A stretch of 64,000 bases of DNA, taken from contig CAZOAL010000003.1 of assembly GCA_964577695.1 (NCBI GenBank), forward strand, positions 163,486 to 227,485, given 5' to 3'. Origin of the DNA: an uncultured bacterium (GTDB taxonomy: Bacteria > Poribacteria > WGA-4E > PCPOR2b). A program made the translations under genes and the position numbers. Below are positions 806 to 62,720 of the stretch, piece after piece. Position 1 is the first letter of the stretch, and each line of letters begins with the position of its first letter. Under the pieces are notes generated by a model that searched no databases, had not been told where the DNA came from, and saw only the letters and a list, made by a program, of their open reading frames with translations.

Positions 806-1000
806 GGAAGGAGAACGTGAAACGTGAAGCGTGAAACGTGAAAGGAAAGAATGGAAGGAAGGGAAGGAAAGGAAGGATGGAAGAAAGGAAGAATGGAAGG
901 ATGGAAGGTTGTTGTTGGAAGGATGGAAGGATGGAAGGATGGAAGGGAAGAAGTTTTTCACGTTTCACGTTTCACGTTTCACGCATCATTTTCTCTAATC
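806..1000. repeat. heptamer-repeat hairpin element: (CGTGAAA)n arm, GGAAGG/ATGGAAGG tract, (GTTTCAC)n arm
   Basis: read directly: cgtgaaacgtgaagcgtgaaacgtgaaagg 813-842; ggaaggatggaagg units 842-955; gtttcacgtttcacgtttcacg 958-985 (inverted to left arm). Confidence 0.85.
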
Positions 1001-1023: not shown

Positions 1024-2189
1024 ATGCGCATCTTTGATGAAAAAGAGATCGGTTATGTCCGAGAAGTTTTGAACTCAGGGCGTTTGGGGTGGTATCGTGC
1101 GGGGAAGCGAAGCGGAGGGGCGGCAGGTTCGAGCAGGCTTTTGCGGAATTTGTCGGTTCCAAGCACACAATCACTCGCAGTTCTGCGATGACCGGACTCG
1201 CCCAGGCAGTGAGTTGTTCAGAGGCTGGGTGGGATACGGAAGTTATCTGCGACCCGGTGGTGCATTTTGGTGGGGTCGCGGCTTTATACGAAAATGCCAC
1301 GCCAGTCTTCGCCGATATTGAACGGGATACGTTGTTGATGGACCCGGATTCGGTCCGACAGAAGATTACGGAAAAAACCAAGGCGTTGATTGTTACCAAT
1401 CTGTGGGGATTGTGCGCCCGTCTTGACGAACTGAAGGGTATCTGTGACGACCACGGTATTTTTATGATTGAGGACTGTGCGCACAATATGTGCAGTTACT
1501 GGAAGGGAAAGCATGCCGGTACGTGGGGGCATATCGGCGTATTCAGCTTCCAGCAGGGGAAACATCTGCCGACCGGCGACGGCGGAATGATGGTGACGGA
1601 CGACGATGAACTCGACCATAAGCTTTACAATGAATGGGCTTTTGGCGGTGAGTCGCCCGCCTTCTTCACCCTCAACTTCCGTATGAATGAAGTTACGGCG
1701 GCGATTGGGCTGGCGCAACTTGAGCGGGTGCGCGGATACGTCGAGACGTACAACGCCTGCCTGAAACACCTCAACGGGGCGATTGAAGGGTGCGAGTGGC
1801 TCCGACCGCGCCACGTCCCCGAAGGTGCCATACAAGCCGGTTATAATTGGTGTTGCTTCTGGGAGGGAGACAAACACAGATTAAGCCATGAGCGATTTAA
1901 GCAGGTCGCGAGGGAAGCCGGAGCGCCGTTGGGATTCGGTTTCACGCAGAAACCGGCTTACCTTTTCGATGTCTTTCAATCTGTCACCGACCACACCCAC
2001 CCCGGCCGTAAACCGTTCAAACGACACGCGCCTTATCCGGGGAGGAAATACGCTCAAGGGGATTGTCCCGTCGCGGAAGATACCATCTGGCGGATTGTCA
2101 GCAGCGGGGCGATGCTGGCGACCGAAGAAGCGGGGAAGCGTGCGGCGGAAAAAATCCGCATCGCCATTGAGGTGATGAACAAGGGGTAA
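1024..2189 (+). pseudogene. DegT/DnrJ/EryC1/StrS-family PLP-dependent sugar aminotransferase interrupted by a 1-nt frameshift near 1100-1125 (genuine or assembly error)
   Basis: N-terminus MRIFDEKEIGYVREVLNSGRLGWYRAG is in the frame of ORF 838..1191; the rest (FEQAFAEF...EDCAHN...) is in ORF 1089..2189; G-run gagggg at 1115-1120. Confidence 0.6.
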
Positions 2190-2261
2190 TGATGGAATGC
2201 AGGAGTCGCATCCCTTCGACGACGTTCGTGGAGAGGATTCCGCAGAAAGAAGGATTTAGCA

Positions 2262-2822
2262 ATGGGTTGGTGGAGGAAGTTCGTAAGTTGGTGGCGGCGT
2301 ATTTTGAGAAAAATCATTTACTGGATTTCATGCACTTTTGGATTGAAACCTCCAGAAGGTAATCCGCCCACAGCCTCACAGGAATTAACCATTAAAAACG
2401 ACTTCCCAAACCTTCAGACCTGGAGTGTTACAGAAGCAAGTACCACCGCTTATAACTGTATCGCCTGGAGCGTAGGTATCACGAATCAATGGGTATGGCC
2501 GGGAAATACGGTTGCAGATTTTGACGCATTTTATGCTTCCCATGGCTGGTCCGTCGCAAATAATTGTAATCGCGAATATAAAAAGAGAAAGGTCACTCTC
2601 TATGCAAACAATTCTGATCCGAATGATTGTACGCATTCTTCACGAGAAACTCACGATTGTGGCTGGGATGAAAGCAAATTGGGCTCTCTTGAATGTATCA
2701 TGCATATCCGAGATGAACTGGAAGGTGGATGCTACGGCACTGTTATCCGCTGCTATGAGAAGCGAGATGACAATGCAAATGTAGACCTGTTTAGGGAAAA
2801 GGTGGCTAATCATGGGCAATGA
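2262..2822 (+). CDS. hypothetical protein with Cys/His motifs (YNCIAWS ... THDCGWDE ... IMHIRDE); possible papain-like/amidase-type hydrolase
   Basis: 186-aa ORF; Trp/Arg-rich N-terminus; spaced Cys...His...Asp residues; overlaps next gene by 11 nt. Confidence 0.45.
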   Translation: MGWWRKFVSWWRRILRKIIYWISCTFGLKPPEGNPPTASQELTIKNDFPNLQTWSVTEASTTAYNCIAWSVGITNQWVWPGNTVADFDAFYASHGWSVANNCNREYKKRKVTLYANNSDPNDCTHSSRETHDCGWDESKLGSLECIMHIRDELEGGCYGTVIRCYEKRDDNANVDLFREKVANHGQ

Positions 2823-3162
2823 TAACAAAAAGGTTAAGGAAAAGTTTGATGCGCTGTTTGCAGAGTGGGAAAAAGCCATACAAGCCGCTAAGATTCGACT
2901 CAGTTCCAGACCACAGGATTACATAAACAACAAACCATATTGTGAGATCGTGAAACTGGGTAGAGAGGTTTTGCCTTTCATTATAGAAAAGCTGGAACAG
3001 GTCGAAGGCTCTTGGAACGGAGGGGGATTTTTCCTCAATCAGGCAGTTGTTGAGATTACCGGGAGCAAAATGGAAGAAATTATTGGCAACGATCGGCGTT
3101 TTGTGAGCGAACAGGAGAAGTCAGCTTTGATTGTGAAATGGTGGCGGTTGCAAAAACAATAA
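2812..3162 (+). CDS. small hypothetical protein (116 aa), translationally coupled partner of 2262..2822 (immunity-like position)
   Basis: ORF begins inside the end of the upstream ORF; no recognisable domain. Confidence 0.4.
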   Translation: MGNDNKKVKEKFDALFAEWEKAIQAAKIRLSSRPQDYINNKPYCEIVKLGREVLPFIIEKLEQVEGSWNGGGFFLNQAVVEITGSKMEEIIGNDRRFVSEQEKSALIVKWWRLQKQ

Positions 3163-3286
3163 CCCACCCATCAATGAGAGGGAAGTTATACCATTTCTGC
3201 GTGAAGCGGAGAGGGGGGTTGTTAATGATTACGATATCGCGAGGGGGAGAACCACATCCGGTTTCCCTAACATAAAGGAGTGAGGA

Positions 3287-4507: not shown

Positions 4508-4574
4508 TTTTTGCACTGAAAAAGGAAAGAAAGAATGGAAGGAAGGGCATGTTTCAATTTTCTGAAAAAATATG

Positions 4575-4662
4575 TTGACACTTTGGACTCAGGACTCAGG
4601 ATTCAGGATTCAACTACATCTTGCATCTTGCATCTTGCATCTTGCATCTTGTATCTTGTATC
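4575..4662. repeat. tandem heptamers (GGACTCA/GGATTCA)x4 followed by (CTTGCAT)x4(CTTGTAT)x2
   Basis: read directly at 4581-4608 and 4616-4660; lies inside the 5' part of track ORF 4535..6394 but upstream of the likely true start. Confidence 0.85.
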
Positions 4663-4663
4663 A

Positions 4664-6394: not shown

Positions 6395-7869
6395 CGCAAA
6401 CCAGGTGGTTTACGAGTGCGCTGATGGGATTTCTGGCGCTTGGAGTCTGGTGTGTTTCGGCTCAAGTTGCTTTGAATCCCGCTTGCGGGGGCGCAGAGGT
6501 TCCAGAAACCATACAATCGCAACTACAACGTGGCGAGGTTTATATTCTCCAGGGGAAATTTGATGAAGCGGAGGGCGTCTATCGGGCGCTCTTGCAGCAG
6601 GATGCAAAATCGGCTGAAGCGTACCGTGGGCTGGGCCTTGTTTACTGGACTCGTGGGATGGTCGGTGAGGCGCTCCGATATTATCAGGAAGCGCTGAGAT
6701 TAAATCCCGAGATGGTCCAAGCGCTGATGGATGTGGGGGTCATCCTATCTCACCTCGGGCAGCATCTGAAGGCGATCGAACATTGCGAACAGGCGATTCG
6801 CCTTGCACCCGATTCGAGTTGGGTCAGGCTGACGTTCGGCGATATCCTCTGGAATGCCGAACGATATGAGGAGGCAGCCCAACAATACCAAGAGGCTTTG
6901 AATCAGGATTCCCATCTCGTGGCGGCGTATGTTGGACTCGGGCGCGCGTATCTGGCTCAAGCGAAGTTGGAAGCGGCGCTCCAGGCATTCGAGGCAGCGT
7001 TAGCCTTGGATGCGAACGCGCAGGATGCCTACTACCACCGTGGCGTCGTCTATTCCAAACAGGGAAAATACGATTTGGCGATTGCAGATTTTCAAAAAGT
7101 ATTGGAACTCAAATCCGACCACGCGGATGCCTATTTTGAGATGGGGTATGCCTATCAACAGCAGCAGCAGTATGAACAGGCAATTCGCGCCTACCGAGGT
7201 GCGCTCCAAATCAATCCAGACGATGCGGTGGTGCATCACAACCTGGCACGATGCTATATCCGCCAGGGAAACCGAGAAGCTGCCGAACGGGAGCGAAAAA
7301 TCGCCCAGCAGCTCCAGGAATATGCGGATGCGATTGCTCATGCGAAAGCCTATATCACTCAATATCCCGATAAGGCAGAGGGGTACGCCTATTTGGCTTC
7401 CCTGTATCAACAGCGCGGTAAATGGGAGGACGCCATCCAGCAGTACCGTCTCGCATTGACGGTCGATACCCACTTCATGCCCGCCTACAGCAACCTTGCG
7501 GAACTTTATACCCAACGGCGGCAATTCGATCTGGCGGTTAAGGTTTATCAGGAGGCGCTCCGGCAGTCGCCCGACAATGTTCAAATACGTGTTGCGTTGA
7601 GCCTCCTTTATCAAAAGCAAAATCGGGCGAAGGAAGCAGTGGAACAACTGAACATCGCACAGGAATTGGTTGAAACGGCTGCGGCTGCCGGAAAAGCTTC
7701 AGCCGAACAGTTGGAGACACTGGCGTTTGTGTACTATGCAAAGGGGTGGTATGATAAAGCAGAAGCGGTTCTGCGGGAGGTGATGCAGTTCGCTCCGAAT
7801 AATCCAAAGTACCTGCGCCAACTGGATACGATTCGCACAGCACGCCGACGTCAGGAAGGGTTAAAATGA
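6391..7869 (+). CDS. tetratricopeptide (TPR) repeat protein with signal peptide
   Basis: about 12 TPR units ([12 protein letters not shown]..., [13 protein letters not shown]..., [13 protein letters not shown]...); 4-nt overlap with the upstream gene; TTG start or ATG at 6424. Confidence 0.75.
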
Positions 7870-8200
7870 GCAAATGTGCAAATGGAAGGAGAGGAAGAAA
7901 AGGAAGGATGGAAGGAAGGAAGGATGGAAGAAGGGAAGGATGGAGGGATGGAAGAATGGAAGATTGGAAGGATGGAAGATTGGAAGGATGGAAGGATGGA
8001 AGGATGGGAAGGATGGAAGATTGGAAGGATGGAGGGATGGAAGGATGGAAGATTGGAAGGATGGAAGAATGGAAGGATGGAAGGATGGGAAGGATGGAAG
8101 ATTGGAAGGATGGAGGGATGGAAGGATGGAAGGATGGAAAGGAAGAAGTTTTTCACGTTTCGCGTTTCACGTTTCACGTTTCACGTTTTACGCCATAAGC
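7866..8200. repeat. about 290-bp degenerate GGAAGGAT/GGATGGAA tandem tract followed by (GTTTCAC/GTTTCGC)x5
   Basis: read directly; the four overlapping track ORFs here encode WKDGRMEG / HPSILPSF low-complexity repeats and are repeat artefacts. Confidence 0.9.
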
Positions 8201-8225
8201 AATACGCATGGAGGAGGAAGCTATC

Positions 8226-12452: not shown

Positions 12453-15400
12453 ATGCAACAACTTTCCTTGAAACCCACGCACAAGCCTGTCAGGGCATAT
12501 TATGACGCCTTAGCTCGATTTCACGCCATCGGTGTTGCGCATGAAACCGCCGTGCGCTCTGCCTTTTTTAGCCTGCTCGAATCCTGCGGGCGTCAGTTTG
12601 ATTGGACGCTGGTCCCAGAGTGGCCGATGAAACGAGGCAAGAACCAACGGATTATTGTGGACGGTGCGCTCGTGGATGCGTATCACTTGACGCACGGCTT
12701 CTGGGAAGCGAAGGATAGTCAAGATGACCTGGAACGGGAAATCGACAAGAAGTTTTCTACTGGCTACCCCAGAGATAATATCCTGTTTCAGGCACCTGAA
12801 CGGGCAATCCTCTGGCAGAATGACCGACAGGTTCTGGATGCCGATCTCACCCAAGTCGATCAGTTAATCGAAACGCTCACAGCCCTCTTGGAGTATCGCC
12901 CCCCTGATTATGTCGAATGGGAGAAAGCGGTTGCGGAGTTCAAAGACCGCGTTCCTGACTTGGCAACAGGGCTTGTGAGACTCATCGAAAAGGAACGGCA
13001 AACCAACACGCGCTTTCTCTCAGCCTTCACTGTTTTCACCGAGAAGTGTCGTCAATCGATAAACCCTAACATCTCCTCAGCGGCGGTCGAGGAGATGTTG
13101 ATTCAGCACTTGCTCACCGAACGCATCTTCCGCACGGTCTTTCACAACCCGGATTTCAGGGATAAAAATGTCATCGCTTGCGAAATCGAAACGGTGATTC
13201 GAGCTTTGACTTCCCAATCCTTCAGCAGAGATCAATTCCTCAAGAACCTCGATCGGTTCTATGTCGCGATTGAACGAACCGCCGCCACGATTGACGACTT
13301 CTCTCACAAACAGCATTTCCTCAACACGGTCTACGAACAATTCTTTCAAGGCTACTCCGTCAAGGTCGCTGACACACACGGCATCGTCTACACCCCACAG
13401 CCGATTGTCACGTTCATGGTCAAGAGTGTGGAGGACATCTTGCAAAAAGAGTTTGGCAGGTCGCTTTCTGATAGGGACGTGCATATCATCGATCCGTTCG
13501 TGGGAACGGGTAACTTCATCGTGCACGTCATGCAGGAGATCAGGAAAACCGCGCTCCCTCACAAATATGCCCATGAACTCCACTGTAACGAGGTGATGCT
13601 CCTGCCCTACTACATCGCTTCGATGAACATCGAACACGAATACTTTGAAGCAACGGGACACTATCAGCCCTTTGAAGGCATCTGCTTGGTGGATACGTTT
13701 GATCTGGCAGAGGAACGGCAACTCCCGCTGTTTGTTGAGGAAAACACGGCGCGGGTGGAAAAGCAGAAGCGGACGCCGATGTTTGTGATTATCGGGAATC
13801 CGCCGTACAATACGACACAGGTGAATGAGAATGATAATAACAAGAATCGGAAGTATGAAACGATAGATAAGCGCGTGTCGGAAACATACGCAAAAGATTC
13901 AAAGGCTACTAATGTCAATAAGCTGAGTGATCCCTACGTCAAAGCGATTCGTTGGGCATCAGATCGGATCGGTGAGGAAGGTATCGTCGCATTCGTGACG
14001 AACAATAGTTTTATGGATCAAATTGCCTTTGATGGGATGCGTCAACACTTAGCAAAAGATTTTGATGTGATTTATGTCCTCGACTTGAGCGGCAATGTCA
14101 GGAAGAATCCGAAGCTATCAGGCACCACGCATAACGTGTTTGGCATTCAGGTAGGCGTCAGTATTAACCTTTTCATCAGAAAAAGTCAGGCACCCAAAAA
14201 CGCCGCACAGATCCATTACGCACGGGTGGATGAGTTTTGGCGAAAAGAGGAGAAGTATCGGTATCTGGACGAAAAGCAACACAGAGGCACTATTGATTGG
14301 CAATCTATCCAGCCAGATAAGAAAAAGGCGTGGCTGACGGAAGGTCTACACGATGAGTTTGAAACGCTCATATCCATGGGGAATAAGGCATCGAAATCTG
14401 CGAGGGGAGAGGCTGTCGATGCGATCTTCAAGGTTTACAGTCTCGGCGTTGTTACCAACCGCGATACTTGGGCGTACAACTTCAACCGAGATACCCTCAT
14501 CGGAAACATCAAACGAACCATCGCAACCTACAACGAGCAGGTCTTAAAGTGGATTCACCGATCGAATAAAGATGCGAACGTGGATGACTTTGTGCTGTAT
14601 GACGATAGCAGACTGAGCTGGAGCAGAGACTTAAAAGCGGATCTCAACAGAGGACGGCTGGCGGAATTTTCGGAGGAAAAGGTGAGGCAATCCCTCTACC
14701 GCCCGTTTACTCGCACCACTCTGTTCTTTGATCGAATCTTGAACCAGGATGTTTTTGTCTTTCCTTCCATTTACCCCATGCCTGAAACAGAAGCGGAGAA
14801 TCGGGTGATTTGCCTAAGCGCAGTTGGAAATAACAAGGCATTTCATTGTTTAGTGGTAAATATCATACCAGATTTACACTTGACTGGTGATTCTCAATCC
14901 TTCCCCTTCTACACCTACAACGAGGACGGCACGAACCGCCGCGAAAACATTACCGACTGGTCACTCGCTCAATTCCGCAATCACTATGCCCAATCCGCAA
15001 TCCGCAATCCGCAATCCGCAATCGAAAAATGGGATATATTCCACTACGTCTATGCTGTGCTGCATCACCCCGATTATCGTGAACGGTATCAAGCCAACCT
15101 GAAGCGAGAATTGCCCCGCATTCCCTTTGCGCCCGATTTCTGGGCGTTTGCCAGTGCAGGGGAACGCTTGGCAGAGATTCACGTCCACTATGAGGAGCAG
15201 CCCGAATATCCGCTGAAAATGGTTGAGACTCCCAATCAGCGGCTCGATTGGCGTGTCGAGAAGATGCGGCTTTCCAAAGACAAGACGCAACTTCGCTACA
15301 ACGATTTCTTGACGCTGGACGGGGTTCCATCGGAAGCGTTTGACTATCGGCTCGGCAATCGCTCGGCGTTGGATTGGGTGATAGACCAGTATCAGGTCAA

Positions 15401-16941: not shown

Positions 16942-17254
16942 GCGGACGCCGCGACTGGCTCGGCGTGGATTGACACATCCACGCCACGACTGCCGCTGGA
17001 TTTGTCAATCCAGCGAGAGCAGGAAAAATGTTAGCTACTGAAGTCATCGGACATAATTATTTGAGGCTTGGTCATAATTACCGGCAGATCCCGTTTGGCT
17101 ATGACTTTGCCGTGGGAGCAACCTCCCGGTCGCGAGGCGATGAATCGAGTCCGGCAGGACTCTCCCACAGAATTATGACCAACCCTCAATTATTTTGATA
17201 TTCGCCCCCATTCTGGATGCTTGAGACACTGCTTCCCCGACAAATTAAAAATTG

Positions 17255-17300
17255 AAGATTGAAGATTGAAACATCCGCAATCGACAATTGACAATCGACA
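17255..17300. repeat. tandem heptamers (GATTGAA)x3 then CAATCGACA/ATTGACA units
   Basis: aattgaagattgaagattgaaacatccgcaatcgacaattgacaatcgacaaagg. Confidence 0.8.
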
Positions 17301-17313
17301 AAGGAGATTTTAC

Positions 17314-18863: not shown

Positions 18864-19138
18864 TGAGCGGAAAGGGGAATGTTTTAGAAACCTCTTTACA
18901 CGCTTTGGGGTTGGAAGATTGGAAGAATGGAAGGATGGGTGGCAGGGCTTCATCTTCCATTCGTGCAGGTTTCCTGCTCTCATATCAAGTGCAAACTCAT
19001 TTTTTCAGGAATTTGAAACATGCCACTATTAGTCAACCAAATTTAATCTGAGGGATAGACTTCCGAAGTTTCCGAAACTTCGGAAGTCTGCGAGTCCATC
19101 AATTTAAATTTGGTGAAGCACTCTAAGGAGAAAAAATA

Positions 19139-20500: not shown

Positions 20501-20682
20501 GATAATTATGACCAAGCCTCGATTAAGTGTGGGGCTGGTCCATTTCTGGAAAAATGAGTTGACACGCAGCATCAGCCGGAAGGAAAGGAAGGAAGAAAGG
20601 GGGGAAACCCTTCCCTTCCTTCCTTTCCGTTCACTCTGCTCTTCTTACCCAATTGTCAACATCTTTCTGAAACACCTGTCCA

Positions 20683-21810: not shown

Positions 21811-21834
21811 GGTGAACTCCTTTCAAAACTGTGA

Positions 21835-22327: not shown

Positions 22328-23254
22328 ATGGCAACGTTGCAAAAGGACGGTTCAGTGTTGCAAATTGAAACGGATAGCTATCACGCCGCCATGCAGACAC
22401 AAGGCTATGTCAGCGGCACGATGGCAGGCAGTTTCATGGACAAACGCACCGGTGCTCGCGATTTGGGGTTCGGCTTGTGTATCATCGATTTTTTACTGGA
22501 GCCGGGAGCTGACGATGAAACGACACCGCCAGCGTTGCGCTACCACTGGGGAGACGCGGTACATGGCCAGATTCCCAAGCGTTATGTGGAACTTCCGCAG
22601 ATTTGCACGCAGGCGAAGCAGCTCCCCTTTGAAGTTGTGGAAGGCGAAGGCTTTGTCGCCGTGCGGCAGTGGTTCAGATGGGATACCGCTCGTCCGCCTT
22701 ACAAAGCAGGCTCGCGTTGGGAGCAATGGCTCGTTTTCCCCGACGGCGTCCGTTGGTTCTTCGCTTACGACAAAGTGACCAGTGCCAACACAGTCGATAA
22801 CCTCGTGTTGCGGATGGATATGCCAGGGCACCTCAAGCACCAACGCGGTGACACATTTGAGGGGGTTTACTTGAGTTATCACGGGGACATCCCATCGGGT
22901 GCGTTTGCTGATGATTTTCCACCCGATGGGCGTTACTTTTATCGGCGCGGTGGCGATGGCAGTGTGCCGCAACGGTTCATCCGCGCTTATCAGTTGCGCA
23001 ACGGCGTTTGGCTGGCAGGGATGGCGTTAGAACCATCGGCCGTTTATGAGGCATGGTGCCACCAGCGCGGCTATGTTTGCTTCATTCAGGAAATCGGTGG
23101 GCGACGTGTACACGCAGGTGAAAGTTTTGGTGCTGTTCACCTCATTGGCTTCTTCGATGACCTTGCTGAGATGGAGCGCGTGTTTGACGCTCACAAAGGC
23201 GCAACGGCTTTGCGAGTGGAGGGTGGTCGGTGGCGGTTGGAAAGTGAAACGTAA
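22328..23254 (+). CDS. hypothetical protein
   Basis: 308-aa ORF, RBS ggaggaag; no recognisable motif. Confidence 0.5.
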   Translation: MATLQKDGSVLQIETDSYHAAMQTQGYVSGTMAGSFMDKRTGARDLGFGLCIIDFLLEPGADDETTPPALRYHWGDAVHGQIPKRYVELPQICTQAKQLPFEVVEGEGFVAVRQWFRWDTARPPYKAGSRWEQWLVFPDGVRWFFAYDKVTSANTVDNLVLRMDMPGHLKHQRGDTFEGVYLSYHGDIPSGAFADDFPPDGRYFYRRGGDGSVPQRFIRAYQLRNGVWLAGMALEPSAVYEAWCHQRGYVCFIQEIGGRRVHAGESFGAVHLIGFFDDLAEMERVFDAHKGATALRVEGGRWRLESET

Positions 23255-23403
23255 TGGAAGGAGGGGAGGGATGGAAGAAAGCAACCTGCCAAGTTCCCTC
23301 TCCCTCCGTGGGAATTGCTTCGCGATATTTGATGTGCAGGGCTTCCACCATAAGGTCAAGTCCACAGAGCTCAGTCACCGAGCGTGCGTTGAAGCTTGGC
23401 GTT

Positions 23404-26757: not shown

Positions 26758-26981
26758 AAATCCCTCCTTCTGAAGTTGATAGGACCACAGCATTATAGCA
26801 CAAGGCACTTTGAGGCGCAAGCGAATCTTTTGATATACAAAAACTGGTGTCCACCTACTTATCTCATGATTCAACCGGCTCTGCCGCTTTTGAATCCGTG
26901 CCCTGGTCGGTCAGGACCGTCAATTTGCCGTGGCCAGCCTTCCAGCCAAAAGTCAGCCATGGCGTTGAGTTCATTCACGTT

Positions 26982-27842
26982 TCACGTTCCTAATTCAGAC
27001 AAAACCCGTCGCAGATAAGCCACATCTTCCTTCGCCCACTGCTCTAAATTGGGTGGGGAGGTGTCCGCATACCCGACCTGGCGGATAATCGATTCATCGA
27101 AGTTATACTCCGTGTGAACTGATAAAGGGCCGTCAAAGCCGAGTTTTCGCAGGGCGCTCAAGCAGCGATGCCAATTGACACATCCCGCCCCAACCTTCAC
27201 GAAGCAGGGGATATAAGGTAGGATATGACCGGCGGGTTGGGGGGCATAGAGAGCGTCCTTGATGCCCACGACGGACAGGTAATCGCGGAGCATCGACAGC
27301 CCCATGGCATCATCCTCCCCATCAAGCAAAAGGTGGCCGAAGTCAGGGTAGGCACCGACATGGCGGGGGTCAAACCCTTTGATGAGGTGCATCAACCCCG
27401 CGCAGTTAGACCCGATACAGGGGCCGCTATGGATTTGATAGCAGGTTTGCACCCCGTATTTTTCGCTCAACTTCACGAACCCTTCGAGGTCAGCGCGCGC
27501 GCCGTCCAGGACCTTCCAGTAATCGTCGCCCTCGTTGAATTTCCAGAACCCGATCTTGAGGCGAGGGACCCCCGCCTCCGCGCAAGCGGCATATAACGTT
27601 TCGGCGTCGGGGGCCTTCGGAGCGGTCATCGTCACCGCTGCTGTCGCCAACGGGCAAACGAGGCCCTGAGTCTGCCAAACCTTCACCGCCTTGGGCAACG
27701 CCTCGATTACGTTCTCAACGTGAATGGGGTGCCCCGGACGGATGCAGATGTCGATGCCATCGAAGCCAAGCGCAATCGCTTTCTCGCCAAGCCGCTCAAT
27801 GGTGAGATGTGAAAAGAATTTAGAATTGATAATGAGTTGCAT
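26982..27842 (-). CDS. sugar phosphate isomerase/epimerase (xylose isomerase-like TIM barrel)
   Basis: 286 aa; family-typical N-terminus ...LGFDGIDICIRPGHP... Confidence 0.7.
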   Translation of the reverse strand: MQLIINSKFFSHLTIERLGEKAIALGFDGIDICIRPGHPIHVENVIEALPKAVKVWQTQGLVCPLATAAVTMTAPKAPDAETLYAACAEAGVPRLKIGFWKFNEGDDYWKVLDGARADLEGFVKLSEKYGVQTCYQIHSGPCIGSNCAGLMHLIKGFDPRHVGAYPDFGHLLLDGEDDAMGLSMLRDYLSVVGIKDALYAPQPAGHILPYIPCFVKVGAGCVNWHRCLSALRKLGFDGPLSVHTEYNFDESIIRQVGYADTSPPNLEQWAKEDVAYLRRVLSELGT

Positions 27843-27844
27843 AT

Positions 27845-27880
27845 CAGGCGTGAAACGTGAAACGTGAAACGTGAAATGTG
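27845..27880. repeat. (GTGAAAC)x3-4 heptamer repeat
   Basis: gtgaaacgtgaaacgtgaaacgtgaaatgtgagg. Confidence 0.85.
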
Positions 27881-27912
27881 AGGATTTGAACCCATGAACT
27901 GATGAACACCCT

Positions 27913-30805: not shown

Positions 30806-30900
30806 CATGAAACGTATTGCGTATTGCGTATTGCGTACTGCGTATTGCGTGAGTCGTGATACCTGAACCTAACACCTAACACCTAACACCTGACACCTAA
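30806..30900. repeat. (GCGTATT)x5 followed by (CACCTAA)x5 heptamer tracts
   Basis: cgtattgcgtattgcgtattgcgtactgcgtattgcg ... cctaacacctaacacctaacacctgacacctaac. Confidence 0.9.
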
Positions 30901-30916
30901 CGAACGAGGAATAAAA

Positions 30917-32167
30917 ATGATCGAATTTGATAAACTCATAGTGCCCGGAGTCGGCGAAAGAATTGGTAGAGAAAACGGTCGATTGGTTTTTCCCAATCGT
31001 CCGATTATTCCTGTGATTGAGGGCGATGGCATTGGCAGAGACATCATGCGTGCCACTCGCCGGGTGATCGATGCCGCCGTTGAAACCGCCTACGGTGGAG
31101 CCAAACGAATCGCGTGGTTTGATATTTATGCCGGCGAGAAAGCCAACGAAATGTATGGGGAATGGTTGCCCCAGGACACCTTCAAAGCCATTCAGTATTT
31201 TCGGGTTGCCCTGAAGGGGCCCTTGACAACGCCTGTCGGCGGCGGATTTCGTAGCTTAAATGTGACCCTCCGTCAAGAACTAGACCTGTATGCGTGCGTT
31301 CGCCCGGTGCGCCATTTTCAAGGGGTGCCTTCCCCCGTGACGCACCCGGAAAAAATGGATGTCGTCATTTTCCGGGAAAATACCGAAGACGTTTATGCAG
31401 GAATCGAATGGGCGCAGGGAACGCCGGAAGCGAAGAAAGTGATTGAATTTCTCCGCACGCAGATGGGAGCGGACATCCGTGAAGACTCAGGGATCGGTAT
31501 TAAGCCGATCAGCATTTTCGGGACGAAGCGCCTGGTGCGAATGGCGCTCCAATACGCCATCGATCATCACCGCCGGAGTGTCACGCTCGTTCACAAGGGC
31601 AACATTATGAAATTCACGGAAGGTGCTTTCCGTGATTGGGGCTATGAAGTTGCGAAGGAAGAATTCGGGGGTCAGACGGTCACAGAAGATGCGGTTTATA
31701 GCCAATACAATGGGAGAATCCCTGAAGGAAAGATTGTTATTAAAGATCGGATCGCGGATAGCATGTTACAGCAGATCTTGACACGAACGGACGACTACGA
31801 CGTCATTGCAACACCTAACCTGAACGGTGACTACCTCTCCGATGCCTGCGCCGCGCAGGTGGGTGGAATCGGGATGGCACCGGGTGGCAACATCGGTGAT
31901 GAACAGGCGCTGTTTGAAGCCACCCATGGGACTGCGCCCAAGTACACCGATCAAGACGTGTCCAATCCCAGTTCACTCATCCTTTCGGCGGTGATGATGC
32001 TCGAACACATCGGTTGGCAGGGTGCCGCAGATCTCGTGACTCAGGGGCTTGGGCAGGCAATTCTACAAAAGCGTGTGACTTATGACCTCGAACGTTTGAT
32101 GGAAGGCGCGACGAAACTTCACACCTCGGAGTTTGGAACCGCAATTATTGAGAATTTTAAATCATAA
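30917..32167 (+). CDS. icd: NADP-dependent isocitrate dehydrogenase
   Basis: collinear with E. coli Icd from the N-terminus ([15 protein letters not shown]...). Confidence 0.85.
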
Positions 32168-32226
32168 TGCGTAATACGTAATGCGTAAAAATCCTACTTA
32201 TTACGCATTACGTATTACGTATTACG
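32166..32226. terminator. heptamer-built hairpin (aatgcgtaatacgtaatgcgtaa / ttacgcattacgtattacgtattacgcatt) after icd
   Basis: perfect inverted heptamer arrays directly after the stop. Confidence 0.55.
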
Positions 32227-32242
32227 CATTCAGGAGAAACAA

Positions 32243-38102: not shown

Positions 38103-38429
<327 letters not shown>

Positions 38430-38465
38430 ACAAAGATTCAGGATACAAGATACAGAATACAGCAT
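38430..38465. repeat. degenerate heptamer tract (gattcag gatacaa gatacag aatacag)
   Basis: read directly. Confidence 0.7.
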
Positions 38466-47254: not shown

Positions 47255-47430
47255 GGATGAGGTGAGTGGTAGGAGTGACGGAGTGATAGGAGTGGTAGGA
47301 GTGGTAGGAGTGATAGGAGTGGTAGGAGATTATCCCTGTGTCTGTCCTCCTCATAAAGCCCCAATGCCCCTAACACCCCTAACACTCCCATGCTCCGTTG
47401 CCCCTAACACCCCTAACACGTCCATGCTCA
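47255..47430. repeat. (GTGGTAGGA/GTGATAGGA)n tract and (CCCCTAACAC)n tract
   Basis: read directly. Confidence 0.85.
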
Positions 47431-50892: not shown

Positions 50893-50992
50893 TGTGTGAA
50901 ACGTGAAACGTGAAGAGGAACATGCAAACACCTAACACCTAACACCTAATACCTAACACCTTCCACGCATCACGTTTCACGACTTAAAAGGA
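50893..50992. repeat. heptamer hairpin element: (GTGAAAC)x3 ... (CACCTAA)x4 ... CGTTTCACG
   Basis: read directly. Confidence 0.85.
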
Positions 50993-51879: not shown

Positions 51880-51925
51880 GGAACTTGGAAGGAAGGAAGG
51901 AAGGAAGGGAAGGATGGAAGGCAGG
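51880..51925. repeat. (GGAAGGA)n tract
   Basis: ggaaggaaggaaggaaggaagggaaggatggaagg. Confidence 0.8.
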
Positions 51926-53439: not shown

Positions 53440-53520
53440 GAATTGGTGAGTGGTGAATGGTGAATGGTGAGTGGCATCGGTCACAACTCACCGCTCACCC
53501 ACTCACCATTCATTGAGCTG
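53440..53520. repeat. inverted repeat of GTGAGTG/GTGAATG heptamers (ggtgagtggtgaatggtgaatggtgagtgg ... ctcaccgctcacccactcaccattca)
   Basis: read directly. Confidence 0.8.
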
Positions 53521-60654: not shown

Positions 60655-60795
60655 GTCTAACACGGTATTAGGGCGTGTTGACGAACTCGGGGAAATGCGC
60701 TTGTAGCCTAAGTTTCTAACTTGGCCCCAAGCACTAAACCAAGATAGAATCTTGGGCTACGACGGGATCGAAAAATAGTTCGTCAACACGCCCTA
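60655..60795. repeat. MITE-like element family B, full copy (inverse of the 46075-46215 copy)
   Basis: direct comparison. Confidence 0.85.
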
Positions 60796-60844
60796 GTCTC
60801 CCTGTCTCCTTGTCCCCTATCTTTCCCTCCTTCCATTCCATCCC

Positions 60845-61879
60845 TTACCATCCGCCTCTTTCGGCAACGAAATCCTCGACCTCACGCATCGTCGGCATAA
60901 AGTTCGCGCAGCCGTGCCGGGTCACGACAATCGCTCCGGTCGCGTTGCCGAGGCGAGCGGATTTCTCCCACCCCCAGCCTTTCAGGCATCCGTAGATAAA
61001 ACCGCTGGCAAAGGCATCCCCAGCCCCAAGCGTATTGTAAACCTCCACGGGGAACGGATCGGCGTTGATCACTTCTCCGCTGGGCAGATAAACGGTTGCC
61101 CCTTCAATCCCACGCTTCATCACTAATGCTTCCGGCCCACCGCCCAGAATCGTCTCAATGGCGTCTGCTACATCACCTTTGATAGTCGGAGCGGAGAGCT
61201 GGGAGTGCTCGATGGAGAGCTGGGAGAGGTCGGTGAGGGTCGCGGCTTTGACCTCCGCTTCTGTGCCGACGGCGATGTCAACCAGCCGTAACGCGGATCT
61301 GATTACCACGCCGAAGGCGCGGGGGTCGTGCCATTGGTCTGCGCGAAAATCCAGGTCTAAAAACACTTTCGTCTCCGTCCCGTGAGTCTTCGACCCGACA
61401 CCTCTCGCACTCTCAGCCGCGAAGAGCGTCGCGCTACGGCTCGGTTCTTTGCTGAGCCCCGTTCCCGAAATCAGCAGGGCATCGCTATCGGCGATGGGGG
61501 CAGCGAGCACATCGTCGATCGTGAGTTCGATGTCAGCACAGTTGTCACGGTAGTAGACCAGTGGAAACCGATCCGGCGGCTCAATTCCAAGCACGACTGC
61601 ACTGGTTCTATGTCCAGGTTTGCGAGGGATGAATTTTGTCTCTATGCCCTCATCATTCAGGAATTTGAGAATGAAATCGCCGACCGGGTCTTGACCCAAA
61701 GCGGTGAGCAGTGCGGCTCGGAGCCCAAGCCGCCGCGTCCCGACGCTGATGTTTGTCGGGCAGCCCCCCACATACGCTGCAAAGTTGGTGATTTCAGTAA
61801 AGGGGGCACCGATATCGTTGGAATAGAGATCGATGGAACTGCGCCCCATCGACAGAATATCATAAATTCGTTTGCTCAT
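60845..61879 (-). CDS. iolC: 5-dehydro-2-deoxygluconokinase (PfkB family)
   Basis: N-terminus parallels IolC (ILSMGRSSIDLY...YVGGCPTNISVGTRRLGL); near iolD. Confidence 0.65.
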   Translation of the reverse strand: MSKRIYDILSMGRSSIDLYSNDIGAPFTEITNFAAYVGGCPTNISVGTRRLGLRAALLTALGQDPVGDFILKFLNDEGIETKFIPRKPGHRTSAVVLGIEPPDRFPLVYYRDNCADIELTIDDVLAAPIADSDALLISGTGLSKEPSRSATLFAAESARGVGSKTHGTETKVFLDLDFRADQWHDPRAFGVVIRSALRLVDIAVGTEAEVKAATLTDLSQLSIEHSQLSAPTIKGDVADAIETILGGGPEALVMKRGIEGATVYLPSGEVINADPFPVEVYNTLGAGDAFASGFIYGCLKGWGWEKSARLGNATGAIVVTRHGCANFMPTMREVEDFVAERGGW

Positions 61880-62096: not shown

Positions 62097-62621
62097 TTAG
62101 GTGATGTCGGGGCCAATCGCCTCGCGCACCGCCGCCACCACGTCAACGATATCCTCATCCTTCTCCTGCAAGCGGTTATGCGAATAGGGCCCCTTGATAC
62201 ACACCTCCGCCTTAATCGCGCTGAACCCAAATCCCACCGCATCCTTTGCCTTCGCTACGAGGCTTTCCCTGTACTCCGCCAACGTGTTGCCCGCCGGGAG
62301 AAGGCTGGCATACGGGGTCAGCTCGGGCTGTTTAGCGCCTCCCAATAGCTTCCAGATCGGTTTCCCCTCGGCTTTTCCGCGAATATCCCACAGTGCCATA
62401 TCAAGCGCACCCATGGCACAGATACCAAGCCCTCGCCGTCCGTTCATCGCAGAGCCGATGTACAGTTTTTCCCACAACGCCTCCACCTGTAGTGGGTCTT
62501 GACCGATGAGCATCTCCTTAAGCCCCAAGCCCATGCAGTGCGTTCCGGGTGCCTCGATCAACGCCTTTACCGCCCAGGGATTGGTGTCTGTTTCACCGAT
62601 ACCGACGAGCCCTTCGGTCAA
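62097..62621 (-). pseudogene. internal fragment of an enolase-superfamily (MR/MLE) dehydratase gene
   Basis: aligns to residues ~40-210 of the 20683..21810 protein (GIGET...ALWDIRGK...LLGG); it lacks the N-terminal about 40 aa and the whole C-terminal barrel; 5' side abuts the heptamer tract. Confidence 0.6.
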
Positions 62622-62720
62622 TTGTCAATTGTCAATTGTCAATTGTCAATTGTCGATTGTCAATTGTCGATTGTCGATCCCCTCCTTCCCTTCCTTCCCT
62701 TCCTTCCCTTTCTTCCTCTT
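62610..62720. repeat. (CAATTGT)x4(CGATTGT) tract followed by (CCTTCCCTT)n
   Basis: read directly. Confidence 0.9.

What the first reader, a model, noticed from the sequence alone, without database searches (positions are those of the whole stretch)
806..1000. Pervasive heptamer/octamer tandem-repeat hairpin elements between genes
More than 20 intergenic sites carry short tandem repeats of 7-8 bp with differing units. The units seen include GTGAAAC, GGAAGGAT, CTTGCAT, GGACTCA, GATTGAA, GCGTATT, CACCTAA, AATACGT, CAATTGT, GTGGTAGGA and TGAATGG. Examples are at 806-1000, 4575-4662, 7866-8200, 17255-17300, 27845-27880, 30806-30900, 32166-32226, 47255-47430, 50893-50992, 51880-51925, 53440-53520 and 62610-62720. 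Many are built as a left arm of (GTGAAAC)n, a variable repeat loop, and a right arm of (GTTTCAC)n, which gives long perfect stem-loops. This resembles the STRR heptamer repeats of cyanobacteria, but the units here are far more diverse and are structured as hairpins. Their function is unknown. They could act as terminators, recombination hot spots, or a mobile repeat system.
Basis: seen in the sequence. Interest (0 to 1): 0.65.

Follow-up and report, generated by a model that had tools for sequence, protein, structure and literature searches.

The report
Intergenic heptamer repeat arrays and hairpins
The spacers between genes of this uncultivated, Poribacteria-like bacterium are full of fast-changing tandem repeats of 7-9 bases, a known but unexplained kind of bacterial DNA; some pair up into long hairpins whose GTGAAAC arms lie in the same fixed order in distant phyla.

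Summary
All 12 listed sites and all 11 units are found by Tandem Repeats Finder. Perfect arrays of at least 3 copies number 9, 3 and 1 at periods 7, 8 and 9, against 0 in shuffles. They fill about 18 spacers, roughly 10% of intergenic bases. Only two sites have GTGAAAC/GTTTCAC arms, and about five fold into strong hairpins.

The organism is not a cyanobacterium; its nearest named relatives are Candidatus Poribacteria MAGs. The arrays recur identically in other assemblies, change copy number in a 91-94% relative, and are absent from the same spacers in 82-83% relatives. They are therefore young, in-place slippage products of the STRR / long-SSR kind (Mazel 1990, from memory; Mrazek 2007, as cited in two papers read here).

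Three points go beyond what I found in the papers searched:
- (GTGAAAC)n arrays occur in many phyla. When they are paired, the order is 5'-(GTGAAAC)n...(GTTTCAC)n-3' in 24 cases and the reverse in 1. Of the 16 pairs with both neighbouring genes called, 15 lie between co-directional genes.
- GGAAGG-type purine arrays in the window always lie on the sense strand, just after a stop codon.
- In Chloroflexia the armed element is dispersed, with unrelated flanks.

Function remains inferred. An operon-internal RNA hairpin is the most likely role; canonical terminators are not supported.

The parts
814..843 (+). Left arm, (AACGTGA)x4.3, which is (GTGAAAC)n. It starts 24 nt after the stop codon of the upstream URO-D-like gene.
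   Evidence: TRF. It pairs with 956-983 in the RNA fold.
842..946 (+). Purine-rich loop array, (AAGGATGG)x12.5, of the GGAAGGAT type. It lies on the sense strand.
   Evidence: TRF. It is unpaired in the fold.
956..983 (+). Right arm, (TTTCACG)x4.0, which is (GTTTCAC)n. It is followed by the variant CACGCATCA.
   Evidence: TRF and perfect array. Region 916-988 is 93% identical to 8111-8183 (family D11).
4517..4548 (+). Short GGAAGG purine tract 10 nt after the MFS transporter stop codon. The motif GCATGTTTCAATTTTCTGA follows it.
   Evidence: (families D4/D5).
4585..4662 (+). Two adjacent arrays, (GGACTCA)x4.0 and (CATCTTG)x6.6. They end 1 nt before the ATG at 4664.
   Evidence: TRF. The start at 4664 matches the gene call on L252. 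The fold is weak (z -3.2).
7864..8139 (+). (AAATGAGC)x2.6 followed by (ATGGAAGG)x31.8, the longest array. It lies on the sense strand and starts at the TPR gene's stop codon.
   Evidence: TRF. The array is identical in the JGI contig L252.
8151..8192 (+). Right arm, (TTTCACG)x6.0, with no left partner. It ends 33 nt before the ATG at 8226.
   Evidence: TRF. The start at 8226 is confirmed by the gene call on L251.
14991..15023 (+). (CAATCCG)x4.7, the only heptamer array inside a real gene. It is in frame and encodes AQSAIRNPQSAIE within the Type ISP restriction-modification specificity domain.
17251..17301 (+). (ATTGAAG)x2.9 followed by (CAATCGA)x3.4. The two arrays are only partly complementary.
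   Evidence: TRF. The fold is weak (z -2.4).
18912..18938 (+). (TGGAAGAA)x3.4 purine array on the sense strand, 48 nt after a stop codon.
   Evidence: TRF.
20575..20635 (.). A GGAAGG-type tract followed by its complement CCTTCC. Together they form a hairpin between convergent genes.
   Evidence: TRF. The fold is -36.8 kcal/mol, z -4.5. This is the only array flagged as terminator-like.
23253..23284 (+). Degenerate GGAAGG-type purine tract beginning at the stop codon of gene 22328-23254.
   Evidence: (family D4).
26974..26988 (+). (TTCACGT)x2.1, a short GTTTCAC-type array at the right edge of its spacer.
   Evidence: TRF.
27849..27881 (+). (CGTGAAA)x4.7. On the sense (-) strand it reads (GTTTCAC)n and lies 6 nt upstream of the start of gene 26982-27842.
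   Evidence: TRF.
30813..30901 (+). (CGTATTG)x5.4 and (ACCTAAC)x5.0. Together they fill the gltA-icd spacer.
   Evidence: TRF. The 91%-identical relative L006 has 4 and about 9 copies. The 82-83% relatives have none.
32165..32230 (+). (TAATGCG)x3.4 and (ATTACGC)x4.4, inverted arms in the icd-mdh spacer. Variant units are mirrored between the arms.
   Evidence: TRF. The fold has a 24-bp stem, -32.4 kcal/mol, z -8.3. The hairpin is absent from L006 and from more distant relatives.
38435..38462 (+). (GATACAG)x4.0, a degenerate array. The motif GCATGTTTCAAATGTCTGA follows it.
   Evidence: TRF.
47264..47429 (+). (GAGTGGTAG)x7.3, a 9-mer array, followed by a 34-nt unit x1.9 that contains CCCCTAACA repeats.
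   Evidence: TRF.
50896..50981 (+). An armed composite between pheS and a DUF4159 gene. It consists of (GTGAAAC)x2.7, then (AACACCT)x5.0, then the right-arm remnant CACGCATCACGTTTCACG.
   Evidence: TRF. The fold is -23.1 kcal/mol, z -4.65. The 94% relative L123 keeps the loop array and the right arm but lacks the left arm.
51887..51925 (+). (GGAA)x9.5 / GGAAGGAT purine array on the sense strand, 11 nt after a stop codon.
   Evidence: TRF. L123 has a GGAAGG array of different length at the same place.
53444..53507 (+). (TGGTGAA)x4.4 and (ACTCACCC)x2.9, imperfect inverted arms between convergent genes.
   Evidence: TRF. The fold is -39 kcal/mol, z -5.5.
60791..60846 (-). (CCCTGTCT)x4.0 plus a CCTTCC tract. 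On the sense (-) strand the tract reads GGAAGG and begins at the stop codon of gene 60845-61879.
   Evidence: TRF (family D19).
62617..62716 (-). (GTCAATT)x8.4 and (TCCCTTCCT)x4.3. On the sense (-) strand this reads (AGGAAGGGA)n after a stop codon, then (AATTGAC)n running up to the next gene's start.
   Evidence: TRF. The AATTGAC array creates TTGACA hexamers phased every 7 nt.

Best explanation
These are STRR-type long simple-sequence repeats: arrays of 7-nt units, less often 8-9 nt.

Shown:
- The arrays arise and change length in place.
- They persist almost only in non-coding spacers, which they fill from the upstream stop codon to the next gene's ribosome-binding site.
- They turn over quickly between close relatives.
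- Some arrays have been copied in inverted orientation, with variant units mirrored between the arms, giving 24-30-bp stems.
- GTGAAAC-type pairs almost always have the order 5'-(GTGAAAC)n ... (GTTTCAC)n-3' and sit between co-directional genes.

Inferred:
- Length changes come from slipped-strand mispairing at replication.
- Exclusion from genes reflects frameshifts, because 7 is not a multiple of 3.
- The arrays are transcribed with their neighbouring genes.
- Paired arrays act as operon-internal RNA stem-loops in the manner of REP/BIME elements. They could protect the upstream message's 3' end, or partly stop or slow RNA polymerase with their U-rich 3' arm. I put this functional step at about 0.3.
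- Many solitary arrays have little or no function.
- GGAAGG purine arrays are tolerated only on the sense strand because the complement (CCUUCC) would mimic the anti-Shine-Dalgarno sequence and mask ribosome-binding sites.
For: - Period. The spectrum peaks sharply at 7 in the window and in 115 loci from other phyla, with 294 arrays at period 7 against 24, 36 and 34 at periods 6, 8 and 9.
- Location. Arrays are intergenic and make up 10% of spacer bases. Only one heptamer array lies in a real gene, and it is in frame.
- Turnover. Copy numbers are identical in near-identical contigs (L001, L002, L133, L252). The 91-94% relatives differ, with CGTATTG at 4 against 5 copies and CACCTAA at about 9 or 6-7 against 5. 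The same spacers in 82-83% relatives have no arrays: 0 arrays in 21 kb each, against 3.6 per 10 kb in the window.
- Origin of arms. In 32165-32230 the variant order GCG/ACG/GCG is mirrored in the other arm, as an inverted duplication plus one slipped unit would give (sequence).
- Hairpins. Five sites fold with z from -4.5 to -8.3.
- Polarity. The order GTGAAAC then GTTTCAC is found 21 times against 1 in genome loci and 3 against 0 in viral-collection loci, covering at least 16 genomes. Of the 16 pairs with both neighbouring genes called, 15 are between co-directional genes, 1 between convergent and none between divergent genes.
- Purine arrays. They lie on the sense strand at 8 of 8 window sites, or 6 against 0 at the TRF threshold.
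- Literature. Heptanucleotide over-representation and the slippage idea are cited to Mrazek 2007 in PMC4679880 and PMC4692102. Heptamers next to start codons have modest reporter effects in Nostoc (bioRxiv 10.1101/2022.06.06.494920).
Against: - There is no transcript data, so every RNA-level step is inferred.
- Hairpins are not conserved even at 91-94% identity. L123 lacks the left arm and L006 lacks the icd-mdh hairpin. This argues against an important function.
- A simple slippage model does not explain why period 7 beats periods 5 and 6.
- The same stem forms in either arm order, so plain hairpin selection does not explain the fixed order. The U-rich 3' arm argument is my own rationalisation.
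- Other units do not show a clear A-rich-first rule (about 5 against 5).
- The sense-strand rule for purine arrays does not hold in other phyla (16 against 12).
- Gene calls outside the window are crude longest-ORF calls.
Confidence: 0.6

Rival explanations
1. The armed composites are non-autonomous mobile elements of the MITE or REPIN type. The (GTGAAAC)n/(GTTTCAC)n arrays would serve as terminal inverted repeats, which would fix the arm order by definition and allow spread between phyla.
For: - In Chloroflexia, L034, L084 and L036 share arms plus a palindromic interior of about 260 nt at about 70-78% identity. The flanks of L034 and L084 are not homologous, and L036 is a second copy in the same MAG as L084.
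- In the window, 916-988 and 8111-8183 share 93% identity, including the unique junction GAAGAAGTTTTTCACG (family D11).
- The fixed arm order of 24 against 1.
- The variant unit GTGATGC accompanies GTGAAAC in the window, in Desulfococcaceae HSG8 and in Chloroflexia.
Against: - No target-site duplication is visible at L084 or in the window.
- Interiors are unrelated between most copies. The only cross-locus matches were between L034, L084 and L036 and between L089 and L022.
- Solitary arms are commoner than pairs.
- In L123 the loop array and right arm persist while the left arm and its neighbouring gene are replaced. This looks like piecewise local evolution rather than insertion or excision of a unit.
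- No transposase was identified.
Confidence: 0.15
2. The arrays are cooperative binding sites for a protein. One possibility is a ribbon-helix-helix DNA binder that polymerises on contiguous 7-8-bp repeats, as the omega repressor does on WATCACW heptads and MetJ on 8-bp metboxes (from my own knowledge). The other is an RNA binder with a footprint of about 7 nt, such as a cold-shock protein, S1 or CsrA, as MacGregor proposed for TAACTGA repeats.
For: - The strict 7-bp register.
- An arm-order rule reminiscent of the orientation-dependent binding of omega (from memory).
- The variants CATCACG and TATCACG in other phyla resemble WATCACW.
- Arrays abut start codons.
- GGAAGGAT arrays carry a GGA every 4 nt, as CsrA sponges do (from memory).
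Against: - There are at least 12 unrelated units in one 64-kb window and 115 unit classes in the other loci, so no single binder could read them all.
- GTGAAAC shows no strand bias relative to transcription (23 against 22), which argues against a sequence-specific RNA binder.
- Arrays are lost and replaced between close relatives.
- No candidate protein was identified.
Confidence: 0.12
3. The arrays are contingency or tuning loci. Copy-number changes near promoters, ribosome-binding sites or inside genes would switch or tune expression (phase variation).
For: - Copy numbers do change between close relatives.
- Several arrays end 1-40 nt before start codons.
- (CAATCCG)x4.7 lies in frame inside a Type ISP restriction-modification gene, a classic class of phase-variable gene.
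- The (AATTGAC)n array supplies phased TTGACA boxes.
Against: - The flanking genes are mostly housekeeping genes (gltA, icd, mdh, pheS), not surface or defence genes.
- Copy numbers are identical in all near-identical contigs recovered.
- No within-population length variation was seen, although the sampling is thin.
Confidence: 0.08
4. The hairpins are ordinary Rho-independent transcription terminators.
For: Long stems. The 3' arm of GTGAAAC-type hairpins is U-rich. The hairpin at 20597-20617 between convergent genes is flagged as terminator-like.
Against: - Terminator-like sites are not enriched over shuffles: 22, 29 and 13 found against 19.7, 21.6 and 21.7 expected.
- The heptamer hairpins have loops of 9-319 nt and no trailing T run.
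- Of the 16 armed pairs with both neighbouring genes called, 15 lie between co-directional genes with short spacers, and only 1 between convergent genes.
Confidence: 0.04
5. The repeats are assembly artefacts.
For: Short-read assemblies do break at them. The Logan contig L251 ends inside the right arm.
Against: The same arrays, copy for copy, appear in JGI, Logan and ENA contigs. Related but different arrays occur in a 91-94% relative from another sample. Like arrays occur in closed long-read genomes of other phyla.
Confidence: 0.01

Closest known systems
STRR (short tandemly repeated repetitive) heptamers of heterocystous cyanobacteria (Mazel et al. 1990, from memory; mentioned in PMC4692102)
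   Same: Tandem 7-nt units, intergenic, several different units per genome, many dispersed arrays, function unknown.
   Different: The host is not a cyanobacterium. None of STRR1-3 (CCCCAGT, TTGGTCA, CAACAGT) occurs in tandem here. Octamer purine arrays and inverted-arm hairpins are prominent here.
Long simple sequence repeats of 5-11-nt units, with heptanucleotides most abundant (Mrazek, Guo & Shah 2007, as summarised in PMC4679880 and PMC4692102)
   Same: The same class: heptamer excess in intergenic DNA of phylogenetically scattered, non-host-adapted bacteria. Polymerase slippage is the proposed origin.
   Different: As summarised in those two papers, that survey named the genomes richest in 5-11-nt repeats as Burkholderia, cyanobacteria, actinobacteria and Xanthomonas. 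I found no description of an arm-order rule.
TAACTGA direct repeats of marine Beggiatoaceae, Cyanobacteria and Bacteroidetes (MacGregor 2015, PMC4679880)
   Same: One heptamer shared across distant phyla, sitting within a few nucleotides of start codons, next to housekeeping genes. Horizontal spread is suspected but no mechanism is evident.
   Different: That paper reports 169 direct sets and only one indirect repeat. Here inverted pairs are common and have a fixed order. The unit is different, and many units coexist.
GGGAATC / GGGGAYT heptamer repeats of Xanthomonas and Nostoc (Rehm et al. 2015, PMC4692102)
   Same: [quoted passage not shown] Some occur as inverted pairs that could form stem-loops.
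   Different: Those units are G-rich and form quadruplexes. The units here are not G-tract units, and neither occurs in tandem in the window.
REP/BIME elements and REPINs of proteobacteria (from my own knowledge)
   Same: Works alike: extragenic palindromes, often between co-directional genes within operons, that form RNA stem-loops.
   Different: REPs are single imperfect palindromes of about 20-40 nt with a GTAG end, not tandem 7-nt arrays. The window has a separate REPIN-like family of that kind (20425-20496 and four more), which is distinct from the arrays.

Membership tests
Heptanucleotide long SSRs (STRR-like arrays, broad sense) | Head-to-tail copies of a 5-11-nt unit, longer than chance allows, with period 7 dominant | tested here: met
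   Perfect arrays of at least 3 copies number 9, 3 and 1 at periods 7, 8 and 9, against 0 in 30 shuffles. TRF output.
Heptanucleotide long SSRs (STRR-like arrays, broad sense) | Mostly in non-coding DNA | tested here: met
   All heptamer arrays but one lie in spacers. Start codons at 4664 and 8226 were confirmed against independent gene calls.
Heptanucleotide long SSRs (STRR-like arrays, broad sense) | Copy number varies between related genomes | tested here: met
   L006 and L123 compared with the window, and absence from the 82-83% relatives.
Cyanobacterial STRR in the strict sense | Cyanobacterial host and the units STRR1-3 | tested here: not met
   The nearest named relatives are Candidatus Poribacteria MAGs. 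There are no tandem copies of CCCCAGT, TTGGTCA or CAACAGT.
TAACTGA repeat network (MacGregor 2015) | Tandem TAACTGA | tested here: not met
   5 single occurrences against about 7.8 expected by chance, and none in tandem.
Rho-independent terminators | G+C-rich stem, loop of 3-8 nt, then a T run | tested here: not met
   Only 20597-20617 is flagged. Counts are not above shuffles. Heptamer hairpins have loops of 9-319 nt and no T run.
REP/BIME or REPIN | Dispersed copies of one imperfect palindrome of about 20-40 nt, with a GTAG-type end | tested here: not met
   The arrays are tandem 7-nt units of many sequences. A different family in the window does fit this definition (families D13/D17).
MITE | Terminal inverted repeats, target-site duplication, and homologous copies at unrelated sites | tested here: inconclusive
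   Homologous copies with unrelated flanks were seen in Chloroflexia, and one duplicated junction in the window (D11). No target-site duplication was seen, and most interiors are unrelated.
CRISPR array | Direct repeats of 24-48 nt separated by unique spacers | tested here: not met
   Periods are 7-9 with no spacers.
Known structured RNA families (Rfam) | A match at gathering score | tested here: not met
   No matches in the window. No tRNA or tmRNA genes.
Phase-variable contingency loci | Length heterogeneity within a population that switches a gene on or off | not testable with these tools
   Only consensus contigs are available, and near-identical contigs carry identical copy numbers.

The most novel reading that the evidence does not exclude
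(GTGAAAC)n ... (GTTTCAC)n is a distinct, polarity-constrained intercistronic element shared by many bacterial phyla, including Chloroflexota, Desulfobacterota, Verrucomicrobiota, Bacteroidota and Poribacteria-like lineages. The stop-codon-bearing purine arm follows the upstream gene. The pyrimidine arm, which has no start or stop codon, precedes the next gene's ribosome-binding site. The design would be kept either by a conserved factor that reads the heptad in one orientation or by horizontal spread of a MITE-like unit. It would then be a widespread operon-internal regulatory or mobile device, not just slippage debris.
Probability: 0.2. Interest if true: 0.75.

Novelty: new variant of a known kind. 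Interest (0 to 1): 0.52.

Why it matters
Heptamer arrays have been known in bacteria since 1990 (from memory), and the papers read here describe them as over-represented. Those papers still give no agreed origin for the 7-nt step and no established function.

This window shows the phenomenon at high density: about one spacer in three, and 10% of intergenic DNA. The lineage is outside the groups those papers name as rich in such repeats. Sister genomes lack the arrays, which makes a clean contrast for finding whatever gene or repair defect causes them.

The fixed arm order of GTGAAAC pairs (24 against 1 across at least 16 genomes) is a simple rule. Neither neutral slippage nor hairpin stability predicts it, so it gives experiments something specific to test, for example by swapping the arms. 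The strict sense-strand orientation of GGAAGG arrays is a similar handle.

On the practical side, these arrays break short-read assemblies and create spurious ORFs, such as 7874-8248.

Tried and rejected
- Rfam at gathering thresholds and a tRNA scan found nothing.
- The literature library has no paper containing tandem GTGAAAC or GTTTCAC strings in a bacterial context. The three hits are miRNA primer sequences.
- I tried to test whether GTGAAAC is unusually common by scanning the viral collection with composition-matched controls. (GTGAAAC)3 gave 15 hits, (GAGTAAC)3 gave 2 and (GAGAATC)3 gave 100. Most of those 100 hits come from contigs of a single metagenome (3300045988). That collection is therefore useless as a control. 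I make no claim that GTGAAAC is over-represented among heptamers in general.
- A shared cross-phylum vocabulary of units is not supported. The window's other units recur almost only in its own species. CG-containing units are modestly enriched (50% against 32%), as are ACGT-containing units (7% against 2.7%).
- Strand bias of GTGAAAC relative to transcription: none (23 against 22).
- Fold-back self-priming of the purine strand as the cause of the arm order: DNA folding gives -4.5 kcal/mol for (GTGAAAC)6 and -3.8 for (GTTTCAC)6, no real difference. The energy model handles G.A mismatches poorly, so this is inconclusive.
- An 'A-rich arm first' rule for all units: about 5 against 5 outside the GTGAAAC class.
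- Solitary arrays lie nearer the border predicted from the arm order (48 against 22). Part of this may be an ORF-extension artefact of my crude gene calls, so I treat it as weak.
- A frameshift in the DegT gene after the 806-1000 element: the 1024-1188 reading frame has no DegT match, so this is not supported.
- Coding repeats: periods 7 and 8 are not multiples of 3, and copy number differs between relatives. ORFs such as 7874-8248 are therefore taken as spurious.
Full report

Yes.

A count of perfect periodic runs of at least three copies gives 9 arrays at period 7, 3 at period 8 and 1 at period 9. Periods 6 and 10-15 have none. Thirty dinucleotide-preserving shuffles gave 0 for each of periods 7-9.

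I built a longest-ORF gene map and corrected some start codons. Two of the corrected starts, 4664 and 8226, match independent gene calls. On this map the window has 63 genes and 9877 intergenic bases. Thirteen of the 45 spacers of at least 50 nt carry an array at score >=33, and arrays cover 992 nt, or 10% of spacer DNA.

**2. How many are hairpins?**

Fewer than the finding implies.
- Both GTGAAAC-type arms are present only at 806-1000 and 50893-50992.
- Site 7866-8200 has only the right arm, and 27849-27881 is a single arm.
- Three further sites pair through other units: 32165-32230 (TAATGCG/ATTACGC), 53444-53507 (TGGTGAA/ACTCACCC) and 20575-20635 (GGAAGG/CCTTCC).

RNA folding supports these five:

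| Site | Energy (kcal/mol) | z-score |
|---|---|---|
| 806-1000 (stem of about 30 bp around a purine loop of about 110 nt) | -49.1 | -7.1 |
| 32160-32235 | -32.4 | -8.3 |
| 53438-53512 | -39.0 | -5.5 |
| 20570-20640 | -36.8 | -4.5 |
| 50890-50985 | -23.1 | -4.65 |

The double arrays at 4580-4665, 17245-17305, 30806-30905 and 62612-62720 fold weakly (z -3.2, -2.4, -2.2 and -1.95).

**3. Whose genome is it, and are the arrays artefacts?**

The window encodes citrate synthase, isocitrate dehydrogenase, malate dehydrogenase and pheS, among other genes. The isocitrate dehydrogenase is identical to a protein on a 260,099-bp NCBI contig. Its closest named relatives, at 81-82% amino-acid identity, are Candidatus Poribacteria MAGs. 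The organism is therefore not a cyanobacterium.

The arrays recur copy for copy in other assemblies:
- a JGI contig, L252, 99.987% identical over 7731 nt including the 32-copy octamer array;
- Logan contigs L001 and L251;
- an ENA contig, L133, with one SNP.

Some of these may come from the same sample, so this shows independence of the assembler rather than of the population.

**4. How do the arrays evolve?**

A relative at 91% DNA identity from another sample (L006, L123) gives the clearest picture.
- In the gltA-icd spacer it has the same two arrays with different copy numbers: CGTATTG at 4 against 5, and CACCTAA at about 9 against 5.
- Its spacer after icd is entirely different.
- Upstream of the DUF4159 gene it keeps (CACCTAA)n, at 6-7 copies against 5, and the right-arm remnant CACGCATCACGTTTCACG. 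The left arm and the neighbouring pheS are replaced by other sequence.
- Downstream it has a GGAAGG array of different length, interrupted by a G+C-rich palindrome.

A 70% relative (L132) has a hairpin built from a different unit (GTATTGC/GCAATAC) at the same place.

Relatives at 82-83% have ordinary, non-repetitive spacers at gltA-icd-mdh and no arrays of period 7-9 in 21 kb each. These are the closed 5-Mb genomes behind L003-L005 and the Poribacteria MAG GCA_022567695.1. The window has 3.6 such arrays per 10 kb.

In the 32165-32230 hairpin the order of variant units (GCG, ACG, GCG) is mirrored in the other arm with one extra unit. This is what an inverted duplication followed by one slippage step would give (sequence).

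The arrays are therefore young, lineage-specific, built in place and quickly remodelled.

**5. Wider distribution**

The hosts include:
- many Chloroflexota;
- Desulfococcaceae HSG8;
- Nitrospirota, Verrucomicrobiota, Gemmatimonadota, Acidobacteriota and Bacteroidota;
- several Proteobacteria;
- a closed Candidatus Poribacteria chromosome.

TRF on these 880 kb again shows a sharp peak at period 7: 294 arrays, against 24, 36 and 34 at periods 6, 8 and 9. About 200 of the arrays belong to 115 other unit classes. Diverse units in one genome are therefore the rule, not a peculiarity of this window.

Inverted-arm composites occur with many units.

I could not calibrate whether GTGAAAC is commoner than other heptamers. 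The only collection left for controls gave erratic counts.

**6. A polarity rule**

An element of the form (X)n...(reverse complement of X)n reads the same on both strands. The two possible arm orders are therefore truly different objects.

For the GTGAAAC class, pairs within 400 bp have the order 5'-(GTGAAAC)n...(GTTTCAC)n-3' in 21 cases and the reverse in 1. Gaps range from 9 to 319 bp. The viral-collection loci add 3 against 0. By genome the count is at least 16 against 1. My own binomial estimates are about 3e-4 by genome and about 1.5e-6 by element.

Of the 16 pairs whose two neighbouring genes I could call, 15 lie between co-directional genes, 1 between convergent genes and none between divergent genes. 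The arms usually start within a few nucleotides of the upstream stop codon and end 10-30 nt before the next start.

Read in the direction of transcription, the arm after the stop codon is GUGAAAC, which carries UGA in every frame and a GUG. The arm before the ribosome-binding site is GUUUCAC, which has no start or stop codon.

GTGAAAC arrays taken singly show no strand preference relative to transcription (23 against 22).

The variant unit GTGATGC (GCATCAC) accompanies GTGAAAC in the window (983-990, 50964-50972), in Desulfococcaceae HSG8 and in Chloroflexia.

I found no description of this rule in the papers I could search.

**7. Purine arrays**

GGAAGG/GGAAGGAT-type arrays at 788-946, 4517, 7882, 18912, 23253, 51881, 60820 and 62675 all have the purine strand on the sense strand of the flanking genes. 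They begin about 0-50 nt after a stop codon. This is 8 of 8 sites, or 6 against 0 at the TRF threshold. The only antisense copy is the second arm of the hairpin at 20575-20635.

The rule does not hold for purine-rich units in the other phyla (16 against 12).

My inference is that a CCUUCC array in a message would mimic the 3' end of 16S rRNA and mask ribosome-binding sites, so only the sense orientation survives.

**8. What they probably are and do**

The identity is well supported. These are STRR-type long simple-sequence repeats, a class described in cyanobacteria, Xanthomonas, Burkholderia and Beggiatoaceae. Heptanucleotides are the most abundant unit length in that class, and polymerase slippage is the proposed cause (PMC4679880 and PMC4692102, both citing Mrazek 2007).

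Function is not established anywhere. MacGregor proposed translational control for TAACTGA repeats next to start codons (PMC4679880). A Nostoc reporter study found modest effects and postulated an unidentified binding protein (bioRxiv 10.1101/2022.06.06.494920).

For the paired arrays here, the position between co-directional genes and the long stems suggest operon-internal RNA stem-loops of the REP/BIME kind. The U-rich 3' arm is a possible reason for the fixed order. This is inference, at perhaps 0.3.

Canonical terminators are not supported. Terminator-like sites are not enriched (22, 29 and 13 found against 19.7, 21.6 and 21.7 in shuffles), and only 20597-20617 is flagged.

The poor conservation of hairpins between 91-94% relatives argues that any function is dispensable.

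**9. Rivals**

*Mobile element.* A MITE-like element has some support. In Chloroflexia, L034, L084 and L036 carry arms plus a homologous palindromic interior of about 260 nt. The flanks of L034 and L084 are not homologous, and L036 is a second copy in the same MAG as L084. In the window, 916-988 and 8111-8183 share 93% identity including a unique junction (family D11). Against this, no target-site duplications are visible, most interiors are unrelated, and L123 shows piecewise change rather than whole-unit gain or loss.

*Protein-binding arrays.* Binding of the kind seen with the omega repressor or MetJ, or by a cold-shock protein, S1 or CsrA, would explain a strict register and an orientation rule. 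It cannot explain a dozen unrelated units in 64 kb.

*Phase variation.* This is conceivable for (CAATCCG)x4.7 inside the Type ISP restriction-modification gene. It is unlikely for arrays next to housekeeping genes.

**10. Verdict**

I class it as a new variant of a known kind.

The added value lies in four things: the new host lineage with array-free sisters, the arm-order rule for GTGAAAC pairs across phyla, the sense-strand rule for GGAAGG arrays, and the dispersed armed element in Chloroflexia.

Limits:
- Gene calls outside the window are crude.
- There was no usable control for unit frequency.
- There are no transcript or population data.

Noticed in passing
window 20425-20496, 40693-40762, 43005-43076, 46121-46190, 60700-60769: Five copies of a palindromic dispersed element of about 70 nt: GTAGCCCAAGATTCTATCTTGG ... 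CCAAGATAGAATCTTGGGCTAC. With its GTAG/CTAC ends it looks like a REP doublet (REPIN). It is a separate repeat family from the heptamer arrays (families D13/D17). No RAYT-type transposase was looked for.
   Followed up: partly
window 12453-15554 (array at 14991-15023): A 1033-aa Type ISP restriction-modification ORF has coupler, N6 methylase and C-terminal specificity domains, and no nuclease or helicase domain was detected. It carries an in-frame (CAATCCG)x4.7 array inside the specificity domain. A change of one unit would shift the frame, so it may be a phase switch. The ORF is flanked by a BrnA antitoxin gene (12074-12436) and a YoeB toxin gene (15783-16145).
   Followed up: partly
window 32886-33169 and 38146-38429: The last 284 nt of the malate dehydrogenase gene are duplicated 5.3 kb downstream at 97% identity. 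The copy also matches the mdh 3' ends of relatives at 79% (family D6).
   Followed up: no
window 4547-4565 (+), 19005-19023 (-), 38462-38480 (+), and about 51921-51940 (+): A recurring intergenic motif, GCATGTTTCAAWTTTCTGA, contains the inverted half-sites TTTCA-N6-TGAAA. There are 3 matches with at most 1 mismatch against 0.08 expected, and a looser fourth copy. It usually lies just after a GGAAGG array and before a possible TTGACA/TTTACA box. It could be a transcription-factor site.
   Followed up: partly
window 62617-62675 (- strand): The (AATTGAC)x8.4 array directly upstream of the truncated-looking mandelate-racemase-like gene 62097-62621 generates perfect TTGACA hexamers every 7 nt. These give repeated promoter-like hits. 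The gene's Pfam match starts at profile position 36, as if its N-terminus were missing.
   Followed up: no
window 7866-8248: The 32-copy GGAAGGAT array is open in all three forward frames and creates spurious ORFs of 110-124 aa. JGI's annotation of the same DNA calls a 117-aa gene there (L252). Each unit also carries an AUG preceded, 8 nt upstream, by the Shine-Dalgarno-like sequence of the previous unit.
   Followed up: no
window 9730-9901 / 21818-21989, and 40660-40787 / 60667-60794: Two further pairs of dispersed direct repeats of 172 and 128 nt at 85% identity. The second pair includes a REPIN-like element (families D7 and D12).
   Followed up: no
L034 7599-8000, L084 7441-7760, L036 3635-3923 (Chloroflexota MAGs): A composite element with a (GTGAAAC)n arm, a palindromic interior of about 260 nt and a (GTTTCAC)n arm. 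The interior contains the widespread GTCATCCTGAGCG..GAAGGATC hairpin. L034 and L084 have non-homologous flanks, and L036 is a second copy in the same MAG as L084. L034 also has several extra copies of the inner palindrome.
   Followed up: partly
L145 (IMGVR_UViG_3300048819_000301), 1083-8184: A contig classed as viral carries seven GTGAAAC-class arrays in 10.8 kb, including two pairs in the usual arm order. It may be a misclassified bacterial fragment or a prophage from an array-rich host.
   Followed up: no
L047 5421-5685 (Desulfococcaceae bacterium HSG8): A 265-nt array in which CACGTTT and CACGTAT units alternate in blocks. TATCACG resembles the WATCACW heptad bound by the plasmid omega repressor; that resemblance is from memory and was not tested.
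   Followed up: no
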